The notes beneath the pieces are model-generated. The model saw only the letters and a list, made by a program, of their open reading frames with translations, searched no databases and was not told where the DNA came from. This document shows positions 13,006-28,848 of a stretch of DNA of 64,000 bases, piece after piece (the stretch's first letter is position 1; each line of letters starts with the position of its first letter). The position numbers were made by a program, and so were the translations under genes. Source of the stretch: an uncultured cyanobacterium (GTDB lineage: Bacteria; Cyanobacteriota; Cyanobacteriia; Cyanobacteriales; CAWUOF01); NCBI GenBank assembly GCA_963744145.1, contig CAVUSO010000001.1, positions 256,001 to 320,000 on the forward strand, written 5' to 3'.

Positions 13006-13048
13006 AATTCCAGCATTGAGAAATTCGTTTCGCCTTTTTTATTCTATC

Positions 13049-13507
13049 TTACCCAAGCGATCGCCCTTCTTGCAAATCCCACAAAAACCACGAATTTTCA
13101 ACAACTGTATATTTACCAATAACACTCAATGGTAACACTTCCCCACTCCCAAGCACATCAACAGAAATTCCATCTCGAATCATAATTTTAAACACTTCAT
13201 TCCTACATTCAATTAAGCTTGCATCTAGTTCAAGAATTTGACCCTCTTCATTCAATACACCCAGTAAATCTGAAGTAGATAAACTAAATACATCTTGAGT
13301 ATTACCTTTCTTAGTCAACTGATCGCCACTCTTTCCAGTAGCATCAATAGCGGAAATCAACTATTCATTAGATAGAGGATAATTTTCAGCTAAATATTCA
13401 ACAATTTTAGCAACTCTGGATTCTATTTTTTCCTGTTCTTCACAGCAGAGTGTAATGGCCCACTTTTGCCTAGCATTTTGGATCAAAGTAGAAGTTTGAG
13501 ATTTCAT
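13049..13507 (-). pseudogene. Decayed duplicate of the 15751-16188 gene
   Basis: Colinear at offset 2681 bp; TGG->TAG at NEW(M), and original stop TAA->CAA. Confidence 0.85.
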
Positions 13508-15671: not shown

Positions 15672-15750
15672 GGTGTTTGAGAGAATAGGAGTTGATTTTA
15701 TTATAGGCGATCGCCTTTTTTATTCTATCTTACCCAAGCGATCGCTCTGC

Positions 15751-16188
15751 TTACAAATCCCACAAAAACCACGAATTTTCAACAACTATATATTTACCAA
15801 TAACACTCAATGGTAACACTTCCCCACTCCCAAGCACATCAACAGAAATTCCATCTCGAATCATAATTTTAAACACTTCATCCCTACATTCAATTAAGCT
15901 TGCATCTAGTTCAAGAATTTGACCCTCTTCATTCAATACACCCAGTAAATCCGAAGTAGATAAACTAAATACATCTTGAGTATTACCTTTCTTAGTCAAC
16001 TGATCGCCACCCTTTCCAGTAGCATCAATATCGGAAATCATCCATTCATTAGATAGAGGATAATTTTCAGCTAAATATTCAACAATTTTAGCAACTCTGG
16101 ATTCTATTTTTTCCTGTTCTTCACAGCAGAGTGTAACAGCCCACTTTTGGCTAACATTTTCGATCACAGGAGAAGTTTGAGATTTCAT
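15751..16188 (-). CDS. Hypothetical protein, probable immunity protein
   Basis: 145 aa; start overlaps the 3' end of the upstream toxin-like ORF. Confidence 0.55.
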   Translation of the reverse strand: MKSQTSPVIENVSQKWAVTLCCEEQEKIESRVAKIVEYLAENYPLSNEWMISDIDATGKGGDQLTKKGNTQDVFSLSTSDLLGVLNEEGQILELDASLIECRDEVFKIMIRDGISVDVLGSGEVLPLSVIGKYIVVENSWFLWDL

Positions 16189-20085: not shown

Positions 20086-20180
20086 CCTAACCCCCCAACC
20101 CCCTTCCCTACAAGGGAATGGGGAGAAAGATCATTCTTGCTCCCCTTTCCTCTTAGGAGAGGGGTTGGGGGAGAGGTCAA
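20086..20180 (+). repeat. ~94-bp palindromic repeat, inverted partner of 23562-23655
   Basis: CCTAACCCCCCAACCCCCTTCCCTAC..AGAAAGATCATTCTTGCTCCCCTTTCCTCT..GAGGGGTTGGGGGAGAGGTCAA. Confidence 0.85.
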
Positions 20181-20303
20181 GATCCGCGATTCGCCAGTTC
20201 CAGATTATATTCTAACTACTCAATCCATCAGAGAATCTTTAGAAATGCTGGTTTTCCTCAGTAAAGTCTGAAATACCTATTCTACCGTTGCTGATTTTTA
20301 GAG

Positions 20304-21755
20304 TTACAAATCTTTGCGCCAGAAAAGAGACTCCCAACGTCGTCCTAAAGATACGACTTTAACCATCCACACCCCCTCACTAAACCCAAATGCTGGGAGA
20401 TGACCTTTTGGAGCAGTTAGGTTAAATGTTAGGGCAATATATAATAACCAGTTTTTTCCCTTTCTCCATCCCACTTGATCACCAAATTTATCTCTTATTT
20501 GATCATCTGCATTAAGATGACCTCCCACATCCTTACTTTGCCAGAGGTTTTTTTGCACACTAAAACCAAAATGACCAAGCGAGTATTTCACCCATAACTG
20601 ATCTATAGTGTGAAGGTCTTTACTCGGAAACTTTAACCAATCATTACTATCGAGATATCCCTCTCTTTCACGATGAGCAGCTTTAAGTAAAAGACGGTAA
20701 GTTTTCTCATCAGCTTCTTTCCACTTTCCCGCAGCTAAGAGGTCTTGGAGAGGAGTGTAATCTATATTCTTTTGACTTTCGAGAGTAATTTGAAATTGGG
20801 TCGCTGTTGATGATTGATGAATTTGGGTTTTAAGTATTGATGGGTTAAATATTGATGGTTGAGGTCTTAATTTAACATTAAGTTCTTGCCATATTTCCTG
20901 AGCAGATTTATAGCGATCGCTCAAAGGAAGCGAGATCATTTTATCTAAGATCATCCCTAAATCATCACTAATATTAACATATTGTCGCCATACCCATTTC
21001 ATCTCATTAAAATCAAACAAATTATCTATATAATTACAATTTTGTTTGTGTAATAAACAACCTGTCAAAAGCCTAATACAAGTTACCCCTAAACTATATA
21101 TATCACTAGCTGGAAAAGCTTGACCCTGCATTTGTTCTGGAGCTGCATAACTCAGAGTACCAGTTACAGTACCCATACTCATCATTACCGCATCGCTTAA
21201 TTGCTTAGATACTCCAAAATCAATTAACATCAAACAATTATTTATATCTCTAATAATATTATCTGGTTTAATATCTCTATGGATAATATTATTTTTATGG
21301 ATAAAGTCTAAAACTGGGAGAAGTTGACTTAATAAATCTATGATCTGTTCTTCATCAAATTTTCCTTTTTGTTGTAATTCTTTCAATAAATCTTTTCCGT
21401 CGATAAATTCTTGGATTAAATATAAGTGTTTATCTTGTTGAAAGAATGCTAATAAGTCAGGTATTTGGGGATGTTTACCTAAATCTTTTAACCTAATTGC
21501 TTCTTTTTTAAATAATTCTGTTGCTTTTAGTAATTCTTCACTTTCTTGCAACTGAGGTAGAAATTGTTTGATCACACAAAATGTATCTAGTCGTTGCTCA
21601 TCTATGGCTTTGAAGGTTCTCCCAAAACCACCCTTTCCCAGAAATTGCAATGCTCGATAGCGATCGCCCAGCAATAACCTATTCCCACAGAACTGACAAA
21701 GCTTGATCTCAGGTGGGTTGATGTTCTCACATTCAGGGTTTAGACATAGACTCAT
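20304..21755 (-). CDS. Ser/Thr kinase with C-terminal GUN4 domain
   Basis: CLNPEC zinc ribbon, GKGGFG, HRDIKPDN, DFG, APE; DYTPLQDLLAAGKWKEAD..IDQLWVKYS.GHFGFSVQ..GHLP. Confidence 0.93.
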   Translation of the reverse strand: MSLCLNPECENINPPEIKLCQFCGNRLLLGDRYRALQFLGKGGFGRTFKAIDEQRLDTFCVIKQFLPQLQESEELLKATELFKKEAIRLKDLGKHPQIPDLLAFFQQDKHLYLIQEFIDGKDLLKELQQKGKFDEEQIIDLLSQLLPVLDFIHKNNIIHRDIKPDNIIRDINNCLMLIDFGVSKQLSDAVMMSMGTVTGTLSYAAPEQMQGQAFPASDIYSLGVTCIRLLTGCLLHKQNCNYIDNLFDFNEMKWVWRQYVNISDDLGMILDKMISLPLSDRYKSAQEIWQELNVKLRPQPSIFNPSILKTQIHQSSTATQFQITLESQKNIDYTPLQDLLAAGKWKEADEKTYRLLLKAAHREREGYLDSNDWLKFPSKDLHTIDQLWVKYSLGHFGFSVQKNLWQSKDVGGHLNADDQIRDKFGDQVGWRKGKNWLLYIALTFNLTAPKGHLPAFGFSEGVWMVKVVSLGRRWESLFWRKDL

Positions 21756-21793
21756 AAAACTTCATCAAGCTCTTGACAAATAATCTGAACTTA

Positions 21794-23398
21794 TTATATC
21801 TTGCAGGTTACAAGTCTTTGCGCCAGAGAAGAGACCCCCAACACAAAAAACCACCACCAAACCCAACCACACCCCAACACCGGAAGATGGCCCATAGGAG
21901 CATCGGTGTTAAAAGTTAGGTCATCATAGCTCTTCCAAGTGCCTCCTTTTCTCCATCCTAACTTTTCCACAAATTTTATTTCGATCTCTAGTCTAGCTTT
22001 GGAATCTCCACCCACATCCTTACTCTCCCAGATCTGTTTTTGAACGCTAAACCCAAAATGACCATCAGAATATTTTACCCATAACTGATCTATAGTGAGA
22101 AGGTCTTTACAGGGAAACTTTAACCAATTATCACCATCAAGATATTTCTCTTTTTCACGATTAGCAGCTTTAAGTACAAGTCGATAAGTTTCCACATCAG
22201 CCTCTTTCCATTTACCAGCAGCTAATAAGTCTCGGAGCGGAGCATAATCTATATTTCTTTCACTTTCAAGAATAATTTGATCTACAGATTTATTGAATGG
22301 ATCAGAACTATTGAATAGCCAGTTAAACAAATTATTTTGTTTTTCGTTTATTGTTGGTTCTAAAGGATCTGGTAATAATTGGAAATTCGATTTTTGTGAT
22401 AAATTTGTCTCTAAATTACTAGCCAAATTAATGGTTTTCTGCGCTGCTGTTGGTGGATAATATATACCTCTTAATGGCGAAACTGGTTTGGGATGTTTTA
22501 GAATTGATTGCCCTACTTCTGATCTTTGAAGTGCTTGCAATACTTCGGCAGCAGATTGATAGCGATCGCCCATAGAAATCGATAACATCTTATCTAAGAT
22601 CAACCCTAATTCATCACTTATATTTGCTTGCGATCGCCAGATCCATTTCTGATTTATGGGATCAAATAAATTATTGACAAAAGTATGGTTTTTAATTGCT
22701 GGAAAACAACCTGTTAATAGTCGAATACAAGTAACACCTAAACTGTATATATCACTAGCAGGGTAAGCATAACCTTGAAGTTGCTCCACAGCCATATAAC
22801 CTGGAGTACCCGCTAAAGTTCCTGCTTCGACCTTTAAAGTATCACTTAATAGCTTAGATACACCGAAATCTATTAGTATTAATGAACCACTATTATGTCT
22901 AACAATATTATCTGGCTTTATATCTCGGTGAATAACATTATTTTGATGAATAAATATTAAAACAGGAAGAAGTTGATTTAATAGATCTATAATTTTTTCT
23001 TGACTAAACTTTCCTTGTTCTTGTAATTCCTCTTTTAAATCTTGTCCTTCGATAAATTCTTGGACTAAATATAAATGTTGATCTTGGGGCAGAAATGCCA
23101 ATAAGTCTGGGATTTGCGGATGTTTCCCTAAATCGCATAATCTCATAGCTTCTTTTTCAAAAAATTCAGCATTGTTATTTTCTTGTTGCTCAATAGAAAA
23201 CTGTTTAATAACACATGGAGTTTTAAGTCTATTTTCGTCTATAGCTTTAAATACTCTACCAAAAGCACCAGCACCAATTAACTTTACTGCGCGATAACGA
23301 TCATTTAGTAAAAGGTTGCTTTTACACTTAGAGCAAGATTTTTGATTAAGTGGGTTAAAATATCCGCAACATGAGTTTAAACATAAACATTGTTCCAT
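21794..23398 (-). CDS. Ser/Thr kinase with C-terminal GUN4 domain (tandem paralogue)
   Basis: GAGAFG, HRDIKPDN, DFG; DYAPLRDLLAAGKWKEAD..GHFGFSVQ..GHLP. Confidence 0.93.
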   Translation of the reverse strand: MEQCLCLNSCCGYFNPLNQKSCSKCKSNLLLNDRYRAVKLIGAGAFGRVFKAIDENRLKTPCVIKQFSIEQQENNNAEFFEKEAMRLCDLGKHPQIPDLLAFLPQDQHLYLVQEFIEGQDLKEELQEQGKFSQEKIIDLLNQLLPVLIFIHQNNVIHRDIKPDNIVRHNSGSLILIDFGVSKLLSDTLKVEAGTLAGTPGYMAVEQLQGYAYPASDIYSLGVTCIRLLTGCFPAIKNHTFVNNLFDPINQKWIWRSQANISDELGLILDKMLSISMGDRYQSAAEVLQALQRSEVGQSILKHPKPVSPLRGIYYPPTAAQKTINLASNLETNLSQKSNFQLLPDPLEPTINEKQNNLFNWLFNSSDPFNKSVDQIILESERNIDYAPLRDLLAAGKWKEADVETYRLVLKAANREKEKYLDGDNWLKFPCKDLLTIDQLWVKYSDGHFGFSVQKQIWESKDVGGDSKARLEIEIKFVEKLGWRKGGTWKSYDDLTFNTDAPMGHLPVLGCGWVWWWFFVLGVSSLAQRLVTCKI

Positions 23399-23561: not shown

Positions 23562-23704
23562 TTGACCTCTCCCCCAACCCCTCGACCCAGAGGAAAGGGG
23601 AGCAAGAATGATCTTTCTCCCTATCCGTAGTAGGGAAGGGGGTTGGGGGGTTAGGCGTCGCCGTGAGCGCTTGCCCTGAGCGTAGTCGAAGGGTAGTCGA
23701 ACGG
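23562..23704 (-). repeat. Inverted copy of the 20086-20180 repeat, followed by nested small dispersed repeats (24-bp insert 23670-23693)
   Basis: Reverse complement matches 20086-20180; CCGTGAGCG[CTTGCCCTGAGCGTAGTCGAAGGG]TAGTCGAACGG. Confidence 0.85.
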
Positions 23705-28371: not shown

Positions 28372-28848
28372 TTAATCGGTAATTTGGACACTACCAACGA
28401 GAATCAGACAAAGGAGACGGTCGATCGCTTTGCAATCTTCTTCAGTGATCGATTCATCTAAAAGTGCAGCGGTGATTCTATACCAATCAGACTTTCTCAC
28501 TGTCTGGGTTGTCCCAATATTGGCCACAATTTGGTTAACTTTTGCCCTGATTGTCCCCTGAGTAGTCCCCTGAGTAGTCCCCTGAGTAGTCCCCTGAGCT
28601 TTACCCTGAGCTTTACCCTGAGCTTTACCCTGAGCTTTACCCTGAGCTTTACCCTGAGCGTAGTCGAAGGGGGAGTCGAAGGGGGAGTCGAAGGGGGAGT
28701 CGAAGGGGGAGTCGAAGGGGGAGTCGAAGGGTAGACTTACACTGAGGGTCGTCGAAGTGGTCAAAGGACAGGATGAAAGAGTGTACTTACACTGAGCGTC
28801 ACCGAAGTAGTCAAAGGGTAAAATCGAAGGATGGGAGATTTGAAGCAT
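28372..28848 (-). CDS. Small cyanobacterial hypothetical protein with an in-frame repeat expansion
   Basis: C-terminal AALLDESITEEDCKAIDRLL looks protein-like; middle PFDS/KAQG/TTQG runs derive from 12-bp repeats; start uncertain. Confidence 0.5.
   Translation of the reverse strand: MLQISHPSILPFDYFGDAQCKYTLSSCPLTTSTTLSVSLPFDSPFDSPFDSPFDSPFDSPFDYAQGKAQGKAQGKAQGKAQGKAQGTTQGTTQGTTQGTIRAKVNQIVANIGTTQTVRKSDWYRITAALLDESITEEDCKAIDRLLCLILVGSVQITD
28550..28822. repeat. Nested array of 24-bp small dispersed repeat halves
   Basis: GTAGTCCCCTGA x3, TTTACCCTGAGC x5, GTAGTCGAAGGG, GGAGTCGAAGGG x5, then degenerate ACTTACACTGAG..GAAG copies. Confidence 0.9.

What the first reader, a model, noticed from the sequence alone, without database searches (positions are those of the whole stretch)
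20303..21887. GUN4-kinase tails look hypervariable: a G/T-only segment and a shared 3' nucleotide anchor read in two frames
Seen: after the conserved GHLP the two paralogues diverge completely, then share 33/36 nt (20303-20338 vs 21807-21842). That anchor is translated in different frames (ESLFWRKDL* vs VSSLAQRLVTCKI*) because the intervening lengths differ by 17 nt. In the second gene 48 consecutive coding bases are only G/T (21834-21881) and 68 have no A (21820-21887), within an A-rich gene. The first gene has a similar 27/30 G/T patch (20361-20390). Established: diversity-generating retroelements mutate template adenines, in the Bordetella system mostly to T and G, in a C-terminal variable region next to a conserved 3' IMH. 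Inference: conservation at DNA rather than protein level plus A-depletion points to targeted diversification of GUN4 tails, either as remote DGR targets or by an undescribed length-variable mechanism. No RT or template repeat is visible in this window.
Basis: partly seen in the sequence, partly recalled or inferred. Interest (0 to 1): 0.82.

Follow-up and report, generated by a model that had tools for sequence, protein, structure and literature searches.

The report
Random DNA patches in GUN4 sensors
Many cyanobacterial signalling genes, including these two kinases, carry a private stretch of random-looking G/T-rich DNA in their pigment-binding loop; it is not made by a known retroelement and is probably rewritten now and then by a tamed DNA-cutting transposase that also sits beside highly variable peptide genes.

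Summary
In this genome 33 of 44 parsed GUN4 ends carry a 31-277 nt insert between GHLP and a conserved anchor: G41/T35/A14/C9, alike at all codon positions, all three frames used. The anchor recurs in 46 of 301 phylum genomes and has stops in all frames in 114 of 139 tails. No adenine-rich template was found. Inserts are stable between close species but unrelated beyond that, so change is episodic. About 111 nt behind the anchor lies a short motif, often followed by a facing TnpA_REP-type HUH gene (22 of 27 assessable loci). The same enzyme family and motif face cyanobactin, double-glycine and prochlorosin-type precursors. A preprint proposed this, unproven, for prochlorosins only. Best reading (0.55): HUH-targeted replacement with newly made DNA; polymerase unknown. 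The window's two genes have lost the motif and may be frozen. This scan noted the GUN4 tails and the HUH neighbour before, in this genome and others.

The parts
20304..21755 (-). Gene 1: Ser/Thr kinase + GUN4-like domain, 483 aa
   Evidence: PF00069, PF05419 over cut-off
20394..20405 (-). Gene 1 GHLP codons, the 5' edge of the insert
20330..20393 (-). Gene 1 variable insert, 64 nt, 73% G+T
20304..20329 (-). Gene 1 type-A anchor, read LFWRKDL*; the block behind it and the terminal motif are lost
   Evidence: (best motif score -12.4)
21794..23398 (-). Gene 2: Ser/Thr kinase + GUN4-like domain, 534 aa
21881..21892 (-). Gene 2 GHLP codons, the 5' edge of the insert
21834..21880 (-). Gene 2 variable insert, 47 nt, 100% G+T
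21794..21833 (-). Gene 2 type-A anchor, read SSLAQRLVTCKI*; the other frames give LLWRKDL* and LFSGAKTCNLQ.. (middle stop decayed)
21765..21793 (-). Remnant of the start of the conserved non-coding block; its terminal motif is missing and gene 1 starts 38 nt behind gene 2's stop
   Evidence: (best motif score -15.7)

Best explanation
These are two copies of a cyanobacterial diversification module on GUN4-like sensor domains. SHOWN: the codons behind GHLP, which in true GUN4 hold the porphyrin/bilin-contacting LxNxLR loop, are replaced by a stretch of variable length whose base make-up ignores the reading frame and which has no copy elsewhere in the genome. It is closed by an anchor that gives a short C-terminal peptide and a stop in every frame, so any length works. 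Selection removes in-frame stops. About 111 nt behind the anchor start lies a conserved motif, often followed by a facing TnpA_REP (HUH, Y1) gene or its remnant. INFERRED: the HUH enzyme recognises the block, nicks single-stranded DNA at or near the insert/anchor junction, and a repair step lays down new, largely untemplated, slippage-prone DNA (G/T on the coding strand, C/A on the other). This replaces part or all of the old insert from the anchor side and gives a new binding loop. Events are rare and need the enzyme, in cis or trans; copies that lost the motif, like the two in this window, are probably frozen. The polymerase, the cut site and the ligands are unknown.
For: Codon-blind composition in 33 tails and 109 distinct tails of other genomes. 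No 3-nt period. No donor in the genome: longest match elsewhere 15.2 nt on average vs 14.7 for shuffles. In-frame stops 0 of 764 codons vs 40 of 755 and 35 of 743 off-frame. Anchor shows no wobble excess (9/9/11% vs 4/7/42% in GHLP codons), and unused frames keep a stop in 259 of 278 cases vs 67% at control gene ends. All-or-none pattern: 29 of 30 pairs with flanks at least 80% alike have unrelated inserts, 1 identical. Two pairs share the 5' part and differ beside the anchor (L250/L251, L280/L284). Re-copies of the 5' flank in 7 of 74 inserts (0.7 expected), internal repeats in 11 of 74 (2.6 expected). HUH faces GUN4 in 22 of 27 assessable loci found with a query that does not itself face GUN4. 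Motif at 110-113 nt in 23 of 29 motif-bearing tails. Same motif at cyanobactin and procA-type loci. HUH and Tyr motifs are intact in the rows printed. This genome's whole HUH groups (SH-aLRT 100, quick tree) with HUHs facing type-B anchors, and its type-B inserts are purer in G/T (p 0.013).
Against: No activity was measured; the enzyme link is adjacency only. 27 of 45 anchor-positive genomes had no HUH match at E 1e-12, and genome-level co-occurrence is weak (18 of 45 vs 7 of 34, p 0.09). The window's gene 2 has a pure G/T insert yet no terminal motif, and motif retention does not track G+T in this genome (p 0.50). This genome's only whole HUH faces a peptide gene, not GUN4. HUH enzymes cut and rejoin DNA and are not known to synthesise it (recalled). 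Ordinary slippage also occurs (3-nt G-run change, L044/L301). Polarity rests on 2 pairs. In the set 21 of 63 assessable loci had no target I could name. The preprint's authors later found no strong evidence for or against causation.
Confidence: 0.55

Rival explanations
1. No dedicated diversifier. A G-rich loop mutates by slippage and recombination, selection keeps hydrophobic Gly/Trp/Val/Cys/Phe loops, and the HUH gene is a selfish passenger that lands behind such genes.
For: Slippage is seen (L044/L301). Lag-1 identity is slightly raised (0.378 vs 0.337). Many anchor-positive genomes lack the HUH. G/T codons give similar residues in any frame (sequence property).
Against: Synonymous positions carry the same bias, which amino-acid selection cannot give. 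Stable inserts differ by 0-3% while their flanks differ by 1-5%, so there is no steady local mutator. Intermediates are rare (3 pairs among 135 in genus g33). Spacing to the motif is fixed and the enzyme faces several unrelated variable genes.
Confidence: 0.17
2. A reverse transcriptase supplies the random DNA without a template, C/A-rich on the non-coding strand, with or without an HUH nick.
For: Among changed TR adenines of 13 cyanobacterial TR/VR pairs the outcomes are G 0.19, T 0.21, C 0.06, close to the inserts' G:T:C. AbiA makes untemplated A/C DNA (PMC11077055, passages). This genome holds a DRT5 and a CRISPR-type RT.
Against: No RVT_1 match in 4 of 5 HUH-bearing genomes tested, among them three one-contig picocyanobacteria with 8-13 HUH matches. 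No RT was looked for or seen next to the modules. DGR-type RT in only 12 of 45 anchor-positive genomes.
Confidence: 0.13
3. The HUH enzyme captures and joins existing single-stranded fragments (foreign DNA or other tails) by strand transfer; nothing is synthesised de novo.
For: Cleavage and strand transfer are the known chemistry of this fold (recalled; fold hits to IS608 TnpA and 4ER8). No polymerase partner was found.
Against: No donor in the genome. No insert is shared between paralogs. Natural DNA is seldom 75% G+T on one strand without a codon period.
Confidence: 0.1
4. Remote targets of a diversity-generating retroelement.
For: 3' position in a ligand-binding domain, a conserved 3' flank, G/T preference, a DGR-type RT remnant and 8 whole FGE-sulfatase matches in the genome.
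Against: No template; no fixed non-A positions or codon period; lengths 26-299 nt in three frames; RT missing from most anchor-positive genomes.
Confidence: 0.04

Closest known systems
TnpA_REP facing prochlorosin (procA) genes in marine picocyanobacteria (Laurenceau et al., bioRxiv 10.1101/2020.03.09.984088; whole main text read; figures and supplements not seen)
   Same: Same enzyme family (46-50% identity over about 210 aa; sister group in the quick tree); tail-to-tail layout, fixed spacing, conserved intergenic DNA, C-terminal remnants, indel-rich variable region. The terminal motif occurs at a procA-type locus beside their hairpin consensus (L240).
   Different: Target is a sensor domain in large signalling proteins. 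The gene end works in three frames. Codon-blind G/T inserts are not described there. The preprint calls the link unique to marine picocyanobacteria; here relatives face GUN4, cyanobactin and double-glycine precursors. Causation is unproven in both.
Cyanobacterial DGRs (PMC7517822 and PMC7159879, passages read)
   Same: 3'-terminal variation of a binding domain fused to kinases and other signalling domains; many dispersed targets; G/T-biased outcome.
   Different: No template or intact RT; length and frame vary; no retained non-A positions. These passages name GUN4 as an N-terminal or effector domain, and CLec/FGS as the varied one.
TnpA Y1 subclass 2.1 / RAYT group 1 (PMC6006769, passages)
   Same: NHVH/NHIH, FWE, YIHANP motifs, about 250 aa, C-terminal extension, no REP flanks noted.
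   Different: The passages read give no targets and no diversifying role. Below the NF047646 cut-off (49.7 vs 80 bits; query lacked the N-terminus).
Junctional diversity of antigen-receptor CDR3 loops (recalled)
   Same: Works like it: random-length, apparently untemplated DNA in a binding loop between fixed flanks, filtered for open frame.
   Different: No gene segments, no RAG or TdT tested or implied; changes are heritable and rare; a three-frame ending removes the frame penalty.
True GUN4 (PMC1084334 and PMC10156173, passages)
   Same: Core fold up to GHLP (E 7e-16 to 1Y6I).
   Different: The LxNxLR motif and the following helix are replaced by insert and anchor peptide, so tetrapyrrole binding cannot be assumed.

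Membership tests
DGR target | Template repeat that differs from the variable region only at adenines | tested here: not met
DGR target | Intact DGR RT with accessory gene in the genome | tested here: not met
   183-aa remnant only; assembly 96.3% complete; 12 of 45 anchor-positive genomes have one
DGR target | Fixed non-A positions, codon period, near-constant length | tested here: not met
   against true VRs
DGR target | G/T-biased substitution spectrum | tested here: met
   not specific
TnpA_REP-faced variable locus (Laurenceau type) | Partner is a subclass 2.1-like HUH Y1 enzyme related to the picocyanobacterial one | tested here: met
TnpA_REP-faced variable locus (Laurenceau type) | Facing orientation, conserved spacing and intergenic DNA | tested here: met
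   met for the GUN4 family
TnpA_REP-faced variable locus (Laurenceau type) | Block and enzyme present at the two genes of this window | tested here: not met
   terminal motif lost at both; no HUH behind them
TnpA_REP-faced variable locus (Laurenceau type) | Enzyme causes the variation | not testable with these tools
   unproven in the preprint too
TnpA_REP-faced variable locus (Laurenceau type) | Hairpin or G-quadruplex at the boundary | not tested
   no folding was run
True GUN4 ortholog | LxNxLR bilin-binding motif after GHLP | tested here: not met
   present only in the copy at C1:1114726; motif from PMC10156173
Simple-sequence-repeat contingency locus | Variation by copy number of a repeat unit | tested here: not met
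   no period at lags 1-9 beyond slight runs; whole inserts unrelated
Ongoing hypervariation | Variants within one population or between strains | tested here: inconclusive
   only contigs at depth about 4; close species are stable

The most novel reading that the evidence does not exclude
Cyanobacteria own a general, RT-free and template-free gene diversifier: a domesticated HUH nuclease plus a short cis block that writes new random DNA into a chosen coding spot. One device would explain the variable loops of GUN4 sensors (with a gene end evolved to accept any frame) and the long-unexplained hypervariable cores of cyanobactin, prochlorosin and other double-glycine peptides: a bacterial counterpart of junctional antibody diversity.
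Probability: 0.4. Interest if true: 0.93.

Novelty: new variant of a known kind. Interest (0 to 1): 0.8.

Why it matters
Few mechanisms are known that vary one chosen gene region in bacteria. The origin of prochlorosin core diversity is called unknown in the preprint, and cyanobactin cores are described as hypervariable cassettes with no mechanism in the passages read. A named enzyme, a shared short motif, a fixed distance and a base-composition signature make that question testable in vitro and in a model cyanobacterium. It also recasts dozens of GUN4-tailed kinases and other signalling proteins per genome as a variable receptor repertoire, and could yield a compact, retargetable randomiser for directed evolution.

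Tried and rejected
Template search: anchor matrix over the own genome, anchor motifs around 25 DGR-RT loci with 1.5 kb flanks, A-run before the anchor core in 80 genomes: nothing above chance. A template with a diverged 3' end could be missed. Anchor in viral contigs: 0 exact matches. Reads: no RNA holder listed; run X1 is the same or a very close strain, contigs only, depth about 4, no listed piece informative on the inserts; X2 and X3 do not hold the genes: no evidence either way. Genome-wide scan for other G/T-rich targets: 18 of the top 90 windows are GUN4 tails, the others shown look mostly like Pro/Thr-type repeats on the opposite strand (by eye). An antisense sigma-70 promoter in the block was considered from the sequence and dropped: the -35-like hexamer is not kept in other genera (no scan run). 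STRR heptamer origin: no lag-7 signal. HUH sequence search of PDB: 0 hits; model of low confidence (pLDDT 53.5), fold hits only at E 0.003-0.02. The careful tree did not finish; the quick tree is used. Second genus (g45): only 3 tails parsed, 6 of 8 loci. Literature: searches showed no paper on variable GUN4 tails or on this enzyme at cyanobactin genes; subscription papers are not covered, and the preprint's supplements were closed. My note of '13 of 45' DGR-RT genomes was a miscount; it is 12 of 45.
Full report
OBSERVATION. The window is G000:C1:256001-320000, a 7.7 Mb genome in 4 contigs; its gene content and its relatives mark it as a cyanobacterium. Two kinase-GUN4 genes lie in tandem on the minus strand. 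The segments between the GHLP codons and the anchor are 64 and 47 nt.

THE FAMILY IN THIS GENOME. There are 54 GUN4 matches. I gave 51 to a parser; 44 had a GHLP-like motif and 33 of those an anchor within 7 mismatches, 24 of type A and 9 of a shorter type B. Inserts are 31-277 nt and use all three frames (9/14/10). Their composition is A14 C9 G41 T35 and is the same at each codon position, unlike the GUN4 coding DNA upstream. At Gly third positions G is 43% against 15% genome-wide (p 5e-18); two-fold A/G sites are 73 G to 37 A against about 1 to 3 in the genome. Amino-acid selection cannot produce this. The inserts are still translated and filtered: 0 stops in 764 in-frame codons, 40 of 755 and 35 of 743 in the other frames (30 tails). 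No insert has a source elsewhere in the genome. There is no codon period.

WHERE THE INSERT SITS. Alignment to solved GUN4 structures ends at GHLP. The one true GUN4 of this genome continues GHLP-LTNQLRG. That is the LxNxLR bilin-binding motif (PMC10156173, passages) at the end of the loop that covers the porphyrin pocket (PMC1084334, passages). The insert therefore replaces the ligand-contacting residues. What the paralogs bind is unknown.

THE ANCHOR. A 26-nt pattern with at most one mismatch occurs in 46 of 301 genomes of the phylum, in 25 genera, with no reversed-pattern hit. Over 139 tails it reads LFSRVETCRL*, SSLASRLVDCNI* or LLSRRDL* (type A; type B has its own three endings). 114 of 139 have stops in all three frames within 48 nt against 43.5% of 3149 control gene ends; unused frames keep a stop in 259 of 278 cases against 67%. 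Mismatches show no third-position excess (9/9/11%; GHLP codons 4/7/42%). This fits coding in three frames, recognition as DNA, or both; I cannot separate them.

TEMPO. Among 74 distinct tails, 29 of 30 pairs with flanks at least 80% alike have unrelated inserts and one pair is identical. In genus g33 (24 tails from 30 loci), 27 of 28 pairs with flanks at least 95% alike have inserts at least 90% identical, while 102 of 107 pairs at 85-95% are unrelated (pairs are not independent, most close pairs belong to one family of nine). So inserts are stable for long spans and then replaced. Two partial cases share the 5' part and differ next to the anchor: L250/L251 (44 nt shared, 12 nt replaced by 17, frame changed) and L280/L284 (about 240 nt shared). 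A plain 3-nt slip also occurs (L044/L301). Re-copies of the 5' flank (7 of 74, 0.7 expected) and internal repeats (11 of 74, 2.6 expected) suggest synthesis with re-priming. Reads gave nothing on variation within a population.

NOT A DGR. The genome has three RVT_1 matches: an RT beside Cas1, a DRT5 and a 183-aa DGR-type remnant. No template was found. Real TR/VR pairs from relatives show 2 changes in 832 non-A positions and 62% C at codon position 3 (13 pairs). A DGR-type RT is present in 12 of 45 anchor-positive and 5 of 34 anchor-negative genomes. The one likeness is the G, T over C preference.

THE HUH PARTNER. Earlier notes of this scan pointed to a facing HUH gene; I tested it. Two of my anchor loci held one. 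It is a Y1 enzyme of about 250 aa (PF01797; NF047646 below cut-off) with the subclass 2.1 motifs (PMC6006769, passages) and a weak fold match to IS608 TnpA and TnpA_REP. Starting from the enzyme: of 65 genome loci, 44 face a GUN4 end, 4 a cyanobactin precursor, 9 something else, 8 end too soon (this set holds the query locus, two loci of G000 and about three duplicated records). The 33 loci, found with a query that faces a peptide gene, give 22 GUN4 of 27 assessable. Of 80 metagenome loci found with a cyanobactin-facing query, 22 face cyanobactin precursors, 18 GUN4, 2 the anchor alone, 21 other, 17 contig ends (the best 80 of 347). Among 'other' are double-glycine precursors (L122, L137, L141, L183, L233), and this genome's only whole copy (C1:6188689-6189447) faces one. 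All classes share a terminal motif, consensus GATACCTGGCAC, 110-113 nt from the anchor start in 23 of 29 motif-bearing tails (29 of 44 tails bear it). In this genome 8 of 29 tails keep it; HUH remnants lie behind two GUN4 ends; the window's two genes have lost it. Cores of 28 cyanobactin precursors at these loci are G-rich at four-fold sites (50 G, 42 T, 28 A, 19 C; p 9e-9 against this genome's 16%, a foreign background), less extreme than GUN4 inserts. A 'transposase' between the E and F genes is on record for the sph and art clusters (PMC6162287, PMC4663559, passages); L105 shows that layout, but I did not check those proteins. In the quick tree (107 rows) HUH genes cluster by target (13 changes vs 49 shuffled; kin share labels, so this is not proof of co-evolution).

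PRECEDENT. Laurenceau et al. (bioRxiv 10.1101/2020.03.09.984088, main text read) describe TnpA_REP genes facing procA at a fixed distance and propose diversifying recombination; a later note says causation is undecided. Homologs at 46-50% identity occur in 13 of 121 genomes of family f44, and one locus of 14 fetched shows procA-type genes, their hairpin and my terminal motif (L240). Four of five HUH-bearing genomes tested have no RVT_1 match.

AGAINST. Adjacency is not activity. 27 of 45 anchor-positive genomes lack a match (p 0.09 for co-occurrence). Motif retention does not predict G+T purity (p 0.50), and gene 2 of the window is pure G/T without the motif. No polymerase is identified.

VERDICT. 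A real, widespread feature. It works like junctional diversification of a binding loop. It is not a DGR target. It belongs by enzyme, layout and motif with the proposed TnpA_REP-prochlorosin system, on a new kind of target and with a three-frame gene end. My searches found neither the GUN4 module nor the cyanobactin link in print. The scan had noted the GUN4 tails, three-frame end and HUH neighbour before; two word searches for the cyanobactin or prochlorosin link returned nothing. Confidence in HUH-targeted replacement 0.55; interest 0.8.

Noticed in passing
L090:2613-2777 (G000:C1 about 6188100-6188280): 54-aa double-glycine-type precursor (..LSESDLRAVVGG-core) faced by the genome's only whole HUH gene, next to an HlyD-type secretion gene; a likely second target class in this genome.
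   Followed up: partly
L105, L108, L109, L113 and 22 metagenome loci: Cyanobactin precursor genes face the same HUH family across the same terminal motif; cores differ completely between near-identical leaders.
   Followed up: partly
L090:3189-3947 and L105:1363-2178: Both HUH genes carry an in-frame 8-aa insertion (GSTSLTTS) missing from most relatives, probably a short dispersed repeat.
   Followed up: no
L184, L186, L187, L189, L198: A well-supported HUH clade (SH-aLRT 99) with no recognised target gene; L149, from a bin labelled Alphaproteobacteria, also has the enzyme and motif.
   Followed up: no
L059:1350-1530: Anchor preceded by a short G/T stretch fused straight to a kinase domain, no GUN4 seen: a deletion or a retargeted module.
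   Followed up: no
G000:C1:7458283-7460436: One 1066-aa open frame with four GUN4 repeats, each with a different insert; the anchor is read through in the inner three.
   Followed up: partly
L280, L284 and G000:C1:7023754: Very long inserts (277-299 nt) that would encode hydrophobic, possibly membrane-spanning stretches.
   Followed up: no
L001, L002, L003: RT beside Cas1, a DRT5 (PADLOC E 8e-202) and a truncated DGR-type RT in this genome, with 8 FGE-sulfatase matches over cut-off.
   Followed up: partly
G000:C1:5579240, 2540561, 3247333 (minus strand): Strong terminal-motif hits with no anchor in front: possible lost or unknown targets.
   Followed up: no
window 13030-13329 and 15711-16010; 28532-28743; 20086-20180 and 23562-23655: A 98% identical 300-nt duplication, 12-nt tandem repeats inside an ORF, and inverted copies of a dispersed repeat flanking the two kinase genes.
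   Followed up: no
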